Origin: a phage
Length of the DNA: 862 nucleotides
Sequence record: AF039873.1
Reading direction: 5' to 3' (one strand)
In this document: positions 1-862 of the stretch, in pieces
Numbering within the stretch: the first letter of the stretch is position 1
How the letters are laid out: each line of letters starts with the position of its first letter
The notes under the pieces: model-generated
The model's input: the letters and a program-made list of their open reading frames with translations, nothing else
Told to the model about the DNA's origin: nothing
Databases searched by the model: none
Made by a program: the position numbers and the translations under genes

Positions 1-5
1 TACCG

Positions 6-320
6 TCAGTGCGTTAAAACCACAGCGTACCCTGAAACACGGATAGTTAATTGAGGGTATTTTTCAGGATGTTTCTGTGCATCCAAAAGCTGATCACGAC
101 TTAACACATTGACATTTAGGTGTTGACCACCTTCAATTTGAGGGGCGACTTCCACTTTGACTTCACGAAAGGATTCGGGGTCAAAATGAGGTGTAATACC
201 TTCTAGATCTTCAACTAGAACTTTTTGTTTAAGTTCACCATCTTTAGAATATAATTGAGTAATCTGATTATTATGAACAATATTAATTACGCCAGATTTA
301 AGATTTTGATACGCTTTCAT
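6..320 (-). CDS. grcA: GrcA/YfiD-like autonomous glycyl radical cofactor (pyruvate formate-lyase C-terminal glycyl-radical domain protein), 104 aa, unusually short C-terminus
   Basis: Minus-strand ORF from the six-frame track. The segment [11 protein letters not shown]...[18 protein letters not shown] matches, from memory, the conserved glycyl-radical domain of E. coli GrcA and the PflB C-terminus, including the RVSGY signature (Gly codon at 30-32). Start placed at ATG 318-320 (Met26 of the track ORF) because AGGAG sits 5 nt upstream and 334-395 is occupied by a tRNA. Alternative starts GTG 393-395 and ATG 387-389 lack a convincing RBS. Stop TGA at 6-8. Confidence 0.85.
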
Positions 321-324
321 TAGA

Positions 325-330
325 TCTCCT
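325..330 (-). promoter_or_regulatory. Shine-Dalgarno (AGGAGA) for the GrcA-like CDS
   Basis: Minus-strand sequence ACC-AGGAG-ATCTA-ATG: AGGAG at 326-330 with a 5-nt spacer to ATG 318-320, beginning 3 nt after the CCA end of the upstream tRNA. Confidence 0.6.
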
Positions 331-333
331 GGT

Positions 334-409
334 TGGTAGTTAGTAGTGGATTTGAACCACTGTAGTCGCTCCGTATGAAGGAGGTGCATAACCACTCTGC
401 CAACTAACT
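334..409 (-). tRNA. tRNA with anticodon CAT (elongator Met, or Ile2 if C34 is lysidine-modified), 76 nt, CCA encoded
   Basis: Hand-folded cloverleaf on the minus strand: acceptor AGTTAGT/ACTAACT (7 perfect bp), D-loop containing GG, anticodon loop TTCATAC (U33, CAT, A37), T-arm AGTGG-TTCAAAT-CCACT (5 perfect bp, canonical T-loop), discriminator A, encoded CCA at 334-336. Irregularities: D-stem has only 3 Watson-Crick pairs (G13.A22) and C.C at 27:43. Not initiator-like: 1:72 is paired and the anticodon stem lacks three consecutive G-C pairs. Confidence 0.8.
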
Positions 410-425
410 ATTATGTTTTACTAGG

Positions 426-453
426 CTAAGTAAGTATTCTTTGTACTCCTTAG
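426..453 (-). other. Hairpin in the 98-nt spacer between the two tRNAs; possible processing or structural element
   Basis: Minus-strand RNA CTAAG-GAGTA / loop CAAAGAA / TACTT-A-CTTAG: about 10 bp including one G.U, with a 1-nt bulge. The same region on the plus strand has an A.C mismatch in place of the G.U, so the structure is better as minus-strand RNA. No U-tract follows it on the minus strand. Confidence 0.3.
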
Positions 454-507
454 ACCAACTAGCTTTTTTAAACTTTCCTGGGACGCATAAGTCTTAATTC
501 CTAGATT

Positions 508-584
508 TGGTACTCCGGGAGGGATTTAAACCCCCGATCTCTCGGTTATCAGCCGAGTGCTTTAGATCGCTAAGCTACCGAAGT
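508..584 (-). tRNA. tRNA-Ile (anticodon GAT), 77 nt, CCA encoded
   Basis: Hand-folded cloverleaf on the minus strand: acceptor ACTTCGG/CCGGAGT (7 bp, one G.U), U8, D-stem GCTT/AAGC, anticodon stem CTCGG/CCGAG (5 perfect bp), anticodon loop CTGATAA (U33, GAT, A37), variable loop AGATC, T-arm GGGGG-TTTAAAT-CCCTC, discriminator A, encoded CCA at 508-510. Confidence 0.85.
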
Positions 585-627
585 ATTAAAATATTACATC
601 ACACACTGTCTAAGTAAGAAGTATAAT

Positions 628-643
628 GGGAACTTAAGTTCCC
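628..643. repeat. Perfect 16-bp palindrome GGGAACTTAAGTTCCC (6-bp stem, 4-nt loop if folded)
   Basis: The sequence equals its own reverse complement. It lies about 45 bp upstream of tRNA-Ile in the minus-strand sense. No U/T-tract follows on either strand, so it is not a canonical intrinsic terminator. Confidence 0.6.
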
Positions 644-834
644 AGCCCTAACTACTTCTACTCAGTTCGAGGTACTTGACGAACACACCATAAATCATCC
701 TAAATCGGGTGCCCTAGCTGGTCATGATCCTTTGGGAAATACCTGTTGGACCGTTACTACTTTAACCCTCAAGCGATCTTACTAATTGTGTAACGAATCC
801 ACCGGTTTTACACACCTCTTGGGTCCCATCATAG

Positions 835-840
835 ATTATA
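835..840 (-). promoter_or_regulatory. Candidate -10 hexamer (TATAAT, within TATATAAT) for minus-strand transcription toward the tRNAs
   Basis: Minus-strand TGATGGTATATAATCTATG contains a perfect TATAAT. The expected -35 position falls at or beyond the window edge, so it cannot be assessed. A perfect hexamer in AT-rich DNA is weak evidence on its own. Confidence 0.2.
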
Positions 841-860
841 TACCATCAATGACGGTGCGA
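841..860. repeat. Right copy of an imperfect direct repeat shared with window positions 1-13
   Basis: 1-13 taccgtca+gtgcg versus 841-860 taccatca+atgacgg+gtgcg+a: 7/8 identity in the first block, 5/5 in the second, with a 7-bp insertion in the right copy. The insertion plus the next base (850-856 tgacggt) is the reverse complement of 2-8 accgtca. Confidence 0.3.
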
Positions 861-862
861 TT

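What the first reader, a model, noticed from the sequence alone, without database searches (positions are those of the whole stretch)
6..320. Glycyl-radical spare-part gene sitting directly behind a tRNA pair, suggesting a phage auxiliary metabolic gene
Established knowledge: GrcA (YfiD) can stand in for the oxygen-cleaved C-terminal fragment of pyruvate formate-lyase, and I recall a phage T4 homolog being described with the same role. Here a GrcA-like gene follows two tRNAs on one strand in AT-rich DNA, an arrangement typical of phage tRNA clusters. A phage copy would help maintain host anaerobic energy metabolism during infection. The phage origin is inferred from context only.
Basis: inference. 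Interest (0 to 1): 0.45.

Follow-up and report, generated by a model that had tools for sequence, protein, structure and literature searches.

The report
Phage T5 GrcA-like spare-part gene
The window is a stretch of the well-known coliphage T5 tRNA region, and the small gene behind the two tRNAs is T5's already annotated copy of the glycyl-radical "spare part" that is thought to repair oxygen-damaged pyruvate formate-lyase, so it is real but ordinary.

Summary
On the minus strand, tRNA-Ile(GAU) (508-584) and tRNA-Met(CAU) (334-409) are followed 13 nt later by an ATG (320) that opens a glycyl-radical-domain ORF (Pfam PF01228, E=1e-16).

The phage guess is also correct. The window is 96.6% identical to phage T5 (NC_005859.1, 27707-28489), and the ORF is gene T5.056. 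That gene is conserved as a 122-aa stand-alone protein in about 440 T5-like phage records. It is homologous over its full length (53% identity) to T4-type vs.6, which I equate from memory with T4 Y06I, the only biochemically validated phage spare part.

One correction is needed. The stop codon at 6-8 is not the true gene end. A single missing G between window positions 20 and 21, found in no other record, shifts the frame after RVSGYAV and removes the last 22 residues. The real 3' end lies about 50 nt beyond the window.

Differences from T5 pile up at the window's right end as indels that break the neighbouring ORF into three frames. The window therefore looks like a single-pass read, and the frameshift is most likely a sequencing error.

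Function is inferred by homology only: activation by host PflA and complementation of O2-cleaved PflB. The finding is already known and of low interest.

The parts
1..320 (-). 5' 85% of the T5.056-type gene for a stand-alone glycyl-radical (GrcA/Y06I-like) protein. The ATG is at 320-318 and the radical glycine G97 lies in RVSGYAV. The true 3' end is about 50 nt beyond window position 1.
   Evidence: Pfam PF01228 at 1e-16. Alignment to T5 and VAH1. T5 annotation of T5.056 as a 122-aa protein. GrcA structure 6owr at 1.6e-30.
6..21 (-). Out-of-frame tail (VLTH*) and false stop codon, caused by a missing G between window 20 and 21 relative to T5. Most likely a read error.
   Evidence: Alignment A1. 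The best matches among 335 phage records are 99.3% identical, the difference being this gap. The exact 104-aa product is not on record. The 26-mer carrying the deletion is absent from IMG/VR.
326..330 (-). Shine-Dalgarno AGGAG, 5 nt upstream of the ATG and only 3 nt after the encoded CCA end of tRNA-Met.
   Evidence: Read directly from the minus strand.
334..409 (-). tRNA-Met(CAU) with encoded CCA. Identical to T5 tRNAM (T5t01).
   Evidence: ARAGORN. Rfam RF00005 at 51.5 bits. T5 annotation. Alignment A2.
508..584 (-). tRNA-Ile(GAU). Identical to T5 tRNAI1 (T5t02).
   Evidence: ARAGORN. Rfam RF00005 at 65.5 bits. T5 annotation. Alignment A2.
598..862 (-). Degraded copy of the T5.058 hypothetical gene (PHROG 4760, 96 aa in T5). 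The reading frame hops among three frames, and from 782 onward the sequence no longer aligns convincingly.
   Evidence: 22 differences from T5 in 600-781, including 9 indels. Frame-hopping translation, and a tail alignment only marginally better than shuffles, 21 of 500. PHROG match of intact T5.058.

Best explanation
The window is a piece of the early-region tRNA cluster of coliphage T5 or a near-identical Tequintavirus, probably a single-pass read with errors at both ends.

On the minus strand it carries, in order: the 3' part of T5.058, tRNA-Ile(GAU), tRNA-Met(CAU), and the first 85% of T5.056. T5.056 is a 122-aa stand-alone glycyl-radical-domain protein of the GrcA (YfiD) / T4 Y06I (vs.6) kind.

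The proposed mechanism is inferred from homology:

1. The gene is co-transcribed with the tRNAs from the annotated promoter P11. It is translated from its own AGGAG-ATG, which starts 13 nt after the tRNA-Met CCA end.
2. The host radical-SAM activase PflA installs a radical on Gly97, the equivalent of GrcA G102 and PflB G734.
3. The activated protein docks onto PflB that oxygen has cleaved at G734, replaces the lost C-terminal radical domain, and restores conversion of pyruvate to acetyl-CoA plus formate.
4. This would keep fermentative energy and formate supply running in a micro-aerobic gut host whose own gene expression T5 has shut off.

The premature stop at 6-8 is a 1-nt sequencing deletion, not biology.
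For: **Shown**
- The window is 96.6% identical to T5 over 4-781, lying on T5.056, tRNA-Met, tRNA-Ile and T5.058.
- Pfam Gly_radical matches at 1e-16.
- GrcA 6owr matches at 1.6e-30 and PflB 698-759 at 4.6e-27. The radical loop region [10 protein letters not shown]...[16 protein letters not shown] is invariant.
- The C-terminal 62 aa are 79% identical to PflB and 77% to E. coli GrcA.
- T5.056 is a full-length homolog of T4-type vs.6: 53% identity, E=1e-39. It also matches PHROG 1209 end to end.
- The gene is conserved at 122 aa in all of the closest database proteins, and about 440 phage records match at 80% identity or more.
- It has no similarity to T5's own glycyl-radical enzyme NrdD (E=5.1).
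- The spare-part mechanism has been biochemically validated for YfiD and T4 Y06I (PMC8683613, citing Wagner 2001).

**Evidence that the frameshift is a read error**
- Differences from T5 per 100-nt bin are 1, 0, 1, 0, 2, 1, 9, 13, and alignment is lost after 781.
- Many of the differences are indels that break conserved T5.058 into three frames.
- The deletion is seen in no other record.
Against: - No experiment on the T5 protein was found. No paper in the searchable library combines phage T5 with glycyl radical.
- T5.056 scores 121.5 bits on TIGR04365, below the equivalog cutoff of 170. Its N-terminal 50 residues do not align with bacterial GrcA. T4-type vs.6, which I equate with the validated Y06I, also falls below that cutoff at 155.7 bits.
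- Co-transcription from P11 rests on the T5 record's annotation. My simple promoter scan did not recover that promoter.
- The read-error interpretation of the frameshift cannot be proven without the source record.
Confidence: 0.85

Rival explanations
1. The frameshift is real. The source is a T5 variant in which the GrcA-like gene, and the neighbouring T5.058, are decaying pseudogenes, or the gene makes a 104-aa protein truncated 7 residues after the radical glycine.
For: The sequence as given does carry the deletion. From my own knowledge, not tested here, the T5 tRNA region is dispensable in laboratory deletion mutants, so loss would be tolerated.
Against: - The central 460 nt are virtually identical to T5, with one substitution. 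The errors are mostly indels and rise steeply towards one end, ending in unalignable sequence. That is the profile of read-quality decay, not of evolution.
- No other record or contig carries the deletion or the truncated product.
- The 22 lost residues are nearly invariant across the family.
Confidence: 0.07
2. The T5 protein is not, or not only, a PFL repair part. It could serve another host glycyl-radical enzyme such as TdcE, or act mainly to secure formate as the reductant for the phage's own anaerobic ribonucleotide reductase NrdD. It could also titrate PflA.
For: - T5 encodes NrdD, T5.099.
- From established knowledge, class III RNR uses formate as reductant.
- The N-terminal half is unrelated to bacterial GrcA, and the protein is below the GrcA equivalog cutoff.
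- Some records annotate it as 2-ketobutyrate formate-lyase.
- PMC8683613 notes that spare parts for other glycyl-radical enzymes are conceivable.
Against: - The C-terminal domain is 79% identical to PflB itself and shows no similarity to NrdD.
- The formate-for-NrdD idea is a downstream consequence of PFL repair rather than a different mechanism.
Confidence: 0.08

Closest known systems
Phage T5 gene T5.056 (YP_006884.1), annotated 'putative acetyltransferase-related protein', 'pyruvate formate-lyase related protein' or 'autonomous glycyl radical cofactor' in T5-like phages
   Same: It is the same gene. It has the same position behind tRNA-Ile and tRNA-Met. The DNA over window 4-340 is identical to T5 except for one substitution and one 1-nt deletion, and the protein is 99% identical over residues 1-100.
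   Different: The window copy has a 1-nt deletion that shifts the frame after RVSGYAV and gives a false stop. It also has one I21T substitution, G for A at window 259.
Phage T4 Y06I (which I equate from memory with gene vs.6), the biochemically validated phage spare part for PFL (Wagner et al. 2001)
   Same: Both are stand-alone proteins of about 120 aa. They align over their full length at 53% identity with the same MKAYQ start, the same C-terminal glycyl-radical domain, and the same PHROG 1209.
   Different: - In the T4-type phage RB14, the C-terminal 62 aa of vs.6 are identical to E. coli GrcA, whereas T5's are 77% identical.
- The genomic context differs: the vs/regB/lysozyme region in RB14 versus the tRNA cluster in T5.
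- The T5 protein has not been tested.
E. coli GrcA (YfiD), PDB 6owr
   Same: The glycyl-radical domain is shared at 74% identity over 74 residues, with the radical glycine and flanking loop invariant. Size is similar, 122 versus 127 aa.
   Different: The N-terminal ~50 residues do not align. The score is below the TIGR04365 equivalog cutoff, 121.5 against 170. The gene is phage-encoded.
C-terminus of pyruvate formate-lyase PflB (residues 698-759)
   Same: 79% identity over the last 62 residues. This is the segment the spare part is thought to replace.
   Different: PflB is a 760-aa enzyme. The T5 gene encodes only the radical domain plus a short unrelated N-terminal part, with its own start codon and ribosome-binding site.

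Membership tests
Glycyl-radical domain proteins (Pfam PF01228) | Match to the Gly_radical profile above the gathering score. | tested here: met
   61.8 bits against a cutoff of 22.2, E=1e-16, even for the truncated window product.
Glycyl-radical domain proteins (Pfam PF01228) | Radical-bearing glycine in the RVxG[FWY] fingerprint. | tested here: met
   TIRVSGYAV is present, with G97 aligned to GrcA G102 and PflB G734. The column is invariant in alignment A3.
Autonomous glycyl radical cofactor GrcA (NCBIfam TIGR04365, equivalog) | Whole-protein score at or above the curated equivalog cutoff of 170 bits. | tested here: not met
   Intact T5.056 scores 121.5 bits and the window product 77.6 bits. 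Only residues 50-122 align. T4-type vs.6 also falls short at 155.7 bits.
Autonomous glycyl radical cofactor GrcA (NCBIfam TIGR04365, equivalog) | Small stand-alone protein of about 120-127 aa, not the C-terminus of a full-length glycyl-radical enzyme. | tested here: met
   A 122-aa ORF in T5 with its own SD and ATG, 13 nt after a tRNA. All close homologs are 117-125 aa.
Phage spare-part proteins of the T4 Y06I/vs.6 type (PHROG 1209) | Full-length homology to T4-type vs.6. | tested here: met
   BLASTP gives 53% identity over 1-122, E=1e-39. PHROG 1209 is matched 1-122 against 1-121/121 at E=5.8e-48.
Phage spare-part proteins of the T4 Y06I/vs.6 type (PHROG 1209) | Radicalisation by PFL activase and restoration of activity to O2-cleaved PFL. 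| not testable with these tools
   According to PMC8683613, this has been shown only for YfiD and T4 Y06I. No study of the T5 protein was found.
Phage T5 / Tequintavirus genome | Nucleotide identity and synteny with the T5 tRNA cluster. | tested here: met
   96.6% identity over window 4-781 to four T5 records. The order T5.058, tRNA-Ile, tRNA-Met, T5.056 is the same.

The most novel reading that the evidence does not exclude
The T5 GrcA-like protein has an N-terminal half unrelated to bacterial GrcA, and T5 also carries an anaerobic ribonucleotide reductase (NrdD). The protein might therefore be a phage-tuned device whose main purpose is to keep formate flowing to the phage's own class III reductase for dNTP synthesis under micro-aerobic gut conditions. 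This would link two glycyl-radical systems, rather than being a generic energy-metabolism helper.

A separate and less interesting possibility also remains open: the frameshift is real and the source is a T5 variant with a truncated or dead gene.
Probability: 0.12. Interest if true: 0.35.

Novelty: already known. Interest (0 to 1): 0.1.

Why it matters
It matters little beyond confirmation. The gene is annotated in the reference T5 genome and in hundreds of T5-like, T4-like and jumbo phages of enterobacteria. The spare-part concept for a phage protein was shown for T4 Y06I in 2001.

Two small points are useful.

- The T5 version has apparently never been tested biochemically. A recent review-level statement still lists only YfiD and Y06I as validated, so T5.056 would be an easy third case with a divergent N-terminal domain.
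- The apparent short ORF in this window is a reminder that read-end errors can create false gene ends.

Tried and rejected
- **Other RNA families.** An Rfam scan for RNAs other than tRNAs found only two sub-threshold 'Plastid-ycf2' hits, at 25 bits against a gathering score of 65.7. Both lie antisense to the two tRNAs, so I treated them as tRNA-shaped artefacts.
- **Bacterial or prophage origin.** Rejected. No E. coli genome holds the window. The only match is to host grcA, at 74% over 132 nt.
- **Other copies of the frameshift.** The 104-aa product is not on record. The deletion-bearing 26-mer has 0 hits in IMG/VR. The intact-sequence control found only T5 itself, so this particular test is weak. 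The phage BLAST is the stronger evidence.
- **Window tail 782-862.** No significant match in phages beyond the T5 overlap. A lenient alignment to the T5 sequence downstream is only marginally better than shuffles, with 21 of 500 reaching the score. I take the tail to be unreadable read end, but I did not search other collections for it.
- **Promoter check.** The simple sigma-70 scan did not recover the annotated promoter P11 or any convincing minus-strand promoter near the gene, and its counts were below the shuffle expectation. Co-transcription therefore rests on the T5 record's annotation.
- **Spare part for T5 NrdD.** Rejected, because there is no sequence similarity (E=5.1).
- **GrcA versus PflB by phylogeny.** The C-terminal domain does not discriminate: 79% identity to PflB against 77% to GrcA over 62 aa. 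I relied instead on gene architecture and on full-length homology to phage vs.6.
- **Literature.** Searches for a T5-specific study found nothing.

Full report
**What is in the window**

The minus strand carries tRNA-Ile(GAU) at 508-584 and tRNA-Met(CAU) at 334-409. ARAGORN finds both, and Rfam RF00005 scores them at 65.5 and 51.5 bits.

The encoded CCA end of tRNA-Met is at 334. It is followed by ACC-AGGAG-ATCTA-ATG, so a Shine-Dalgarno sequence and a start codon at 320 lie within 13 nt of the tRNA.

The ORF from 320 reads MKAYQNLK...[42 protein letters not shown] and stops at 8-6. It matches Pfam Gly_radical PF01228 at E=1e-16.

**Where it comes from**

BLASTN against 50,697 phage records gives 96.6% identity over window 4-781 to four records of Escherichia phage T5. 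There are about 1,400 further matches, mostly to T5-like phages of Escherichia, Salmonella, Klebsiella and Shigella.

In NC_005859.1 the matched stretch is 27707-28489. It covers T5.056 ('putative acetyltransferase-related protein', InterPro IPR001150), tRNAM(CAU), the tiny ORF T5.057, tRNAI1(GAU) and T5.058. This lies at one end of the large T5 tRNA cluster.

Other records name the same gene in several ways:
- 'pyruvate formate-lyase related protein'
- 'glycine radical'
- '2-ketobutyrate formate-lyase'
- 'autonomous glycyl radical cofactor'

A search of 5,426 complete E. coli genomes finds no copy of the window. The only match is 74% identity between window 5-136 and host grcA. The phage origin is established.

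**The gene end is an artefact**

T5.056 is 122 aa and ends ...[29 protein letters not shown].

The window lacks one G between positions 20 and 21: AAAAC-CACAG against AAAACGCACAG in T5 and VAH1. This shifts the frame right after RVSGYAV and yields VLTH*. The true stop lies about 50 nt left of the window.

Three results show that the deletion is unique to this window:
- None of 335 phage records matching window 1-140 shares it. The best are 99.3% identical, and the single difference is this gap.
- The 104-aa product is not on record in the large assembly collection.
- The 26-mer carrying the deletion is absent from IMG/VR. The intact control found only T5 itself, so that test is weak.

The distribution of differences from T5 is telling. 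Per 100-nt bin they number 1, 0, 1, 0, 2, 1, 9, 13, and after 781 the alignment is lost. Nine of the 22 differences in 600-781 are single-base indels.

The conserved neighbour T5.058 (96 aa, PHROG 4760) can only be read by hopping among all three frames. The two tRNAs and the centre of the window are identical to T5.

This is the signature of a single-pass read whose quality is poor in the first ~20 bases and decays after ~590. It is not the signature of evolutionary divergence. I therefore treat the premature stop as a sequencing error, with about 0.9 confidence. A genuine pseudogene in a T5 variant remains possible but unlikely.

**What the protein is**

- **Solved structures.** The best sequence relative is E. 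coli GrcA (6owr, E=1.6e-30, residues 49-121), followed by PflB residues 698-759 at E=4.6e-27.
- **C-terminal domain.** Over the last 62 residues T5.056 is 79% identical to PflB and 77% to E. coli GrcA. It is 84-85% identical to stand-alone homologs in jumbo Salmonella/Klebsiella phages and a Vibrio phage. This domain cannot decide between GrcA and PflB ancestry.
- **Architecture.** The gene architecture does decide the question. T5.056 is an autonomous 122-aa protein, and all close homologs are 117-125 aa.
- **T4 relationship.** It aligns over its full length with T4-type vs.6, tested on phage RB14: 53% identity, E=1e-39, with a shared MKAYQ N-terminus. It matches PHROG 1209 end to end.
- **Spread among phages.** tblastn finds the gene in 1,584 phage records. 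About 440 match at 80% identity or more (T5-like). Most of the rest are T4-like phages, together with other large phages such as Aeromonas phage Aeh1.
- **Family threshold.** On NCBIfam the best model is TIGR04365 'spare_glycyl' at 121.5 bits, below the equivalog cutoff of 170. The N-terminal 50 residues do not align to bacterial GrcA. T4-type vs.6 also falls below the cutoff at 155.7 bits. The threshold failure therefore argues against labelling the protein a strict bacterial GrcA equivalog, not against the function.
- **Not related to NrdD.** T5.056 has no similarity to T5's own glycyl-radical enzyme NrdD (E=5.1).

**How it most likely works (inferred)**

According to PMC8683613, citing Wagner et al. 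2001, E. coli YfiD and T4 Y06I are radicalised by the PFL activase. They then complex with O2-cleaved PFL and restore its activity, and they are the only two validated spare parts.

I equate Y06I with gene vs.6 from memory, and this was not checked here. The vs.6 sequence tested comes from phage RB14, not from T4 itself.

T5.056 keeps the region [10 protein letters not shown]...[31 protein letters not shown] nearly invariant. The same mechanism is therefore the best-supported reading:

1. Host PflA puts the radical on G97.
2. The domain docks on cleaved PflB.
3. Pyruvate conversion to acetyl-CoA plus formate resumes.

In T5 the gene lies downstream of annotated promoter P11 together with T5.058 and the two tRNAs, and upstream of an annotated terminator beyond T5.055. 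It is thus probably made from a tRNA-mRNA co-transcript. My simple scan did not independently recover P11.

T5 also encodes an anaerobic class III ribonucleotide reductase, NrdD (T5.099). From established knowledge this enzyme class uses formate as reductant. Sustaining PFL could therefore also serve phage dNTP synthesis. That link is speculation.

**Novelty and verdict**

The gene, its phage location and its likely role are already in the public annotation and literature.

No experimental study of the T5 protein was found. That is the only open point. Interest is low.

Noticed in passing
window 590-862: Error density relative to T5 rises sharply here: 22 differences in 600-781, 9 of them indels. 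The last 81 bases do not align convincingly to T5 or to any phage record. The conserved ORF T5.058 is broken into three frames. It looks like the decaying end of a single-pass read.
   Followed up: yes
window 480 and 489: Two single-base insertions (G and A) relative to T5 and VAH1 in the spacer between the two tRNAs. They fall in the 5' part of the annotated 27-aa ORF T5.057, which is not recovered as an ORF in the window. T5.057 may be a spurious annotation in any case.
   Followed up: partly
window 259: The only substitution in the well-read part of the gene is G for A on the plus strand. It changes Ile21 to Thr in the GrcA-like protein relative to T5. VAH1 also differs from T5 just next to it.
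   Followed up: no
L003 2501-2860 (phage RB14 vs.6) versus L004 552-932 (E. coli grcA): The C-terminal 62 residues of the T4-type vs.6 protein are identical to E. coli GrcA, while the N-terminal halves differ. This suggests a recent exchange of the radical domain between host grcA and T-even phages. The T5 copy is clearly more diverged, at 77%.
   Followed up: partly
window 336-409 and 510-584, plus strand: Rfam 'Plastid-ycf2 5'UTR' hits at about 25 bits (gathering score 65.7) lie exactly antisense to the two tRNAs. They are tRNA-shaped false positives.
   Followed up: yes
L006 19962-21686 (T5 record 53961-55685): T5 encodes an NrdD-like anaerobic ribonucleotide reductase, a second glycyl-radical protein. 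No activase (nrdG or pflA) is annotated in the 21.7-76 kb of the T5 record inspected, so both phage glycyl-radical proteins may depend on host activases.
   Followed up: partly
L001 8578-11377 (T5 record about 30284-33083): The T5 tRNA cluster also holds several annotated 'stable RNAs with unknown functions' (RNAI, RNAIII, RNAIV, RNA1, RNA2, RNA2H, RNA3). They lie outside the window and were not examined.
   Followed up: no
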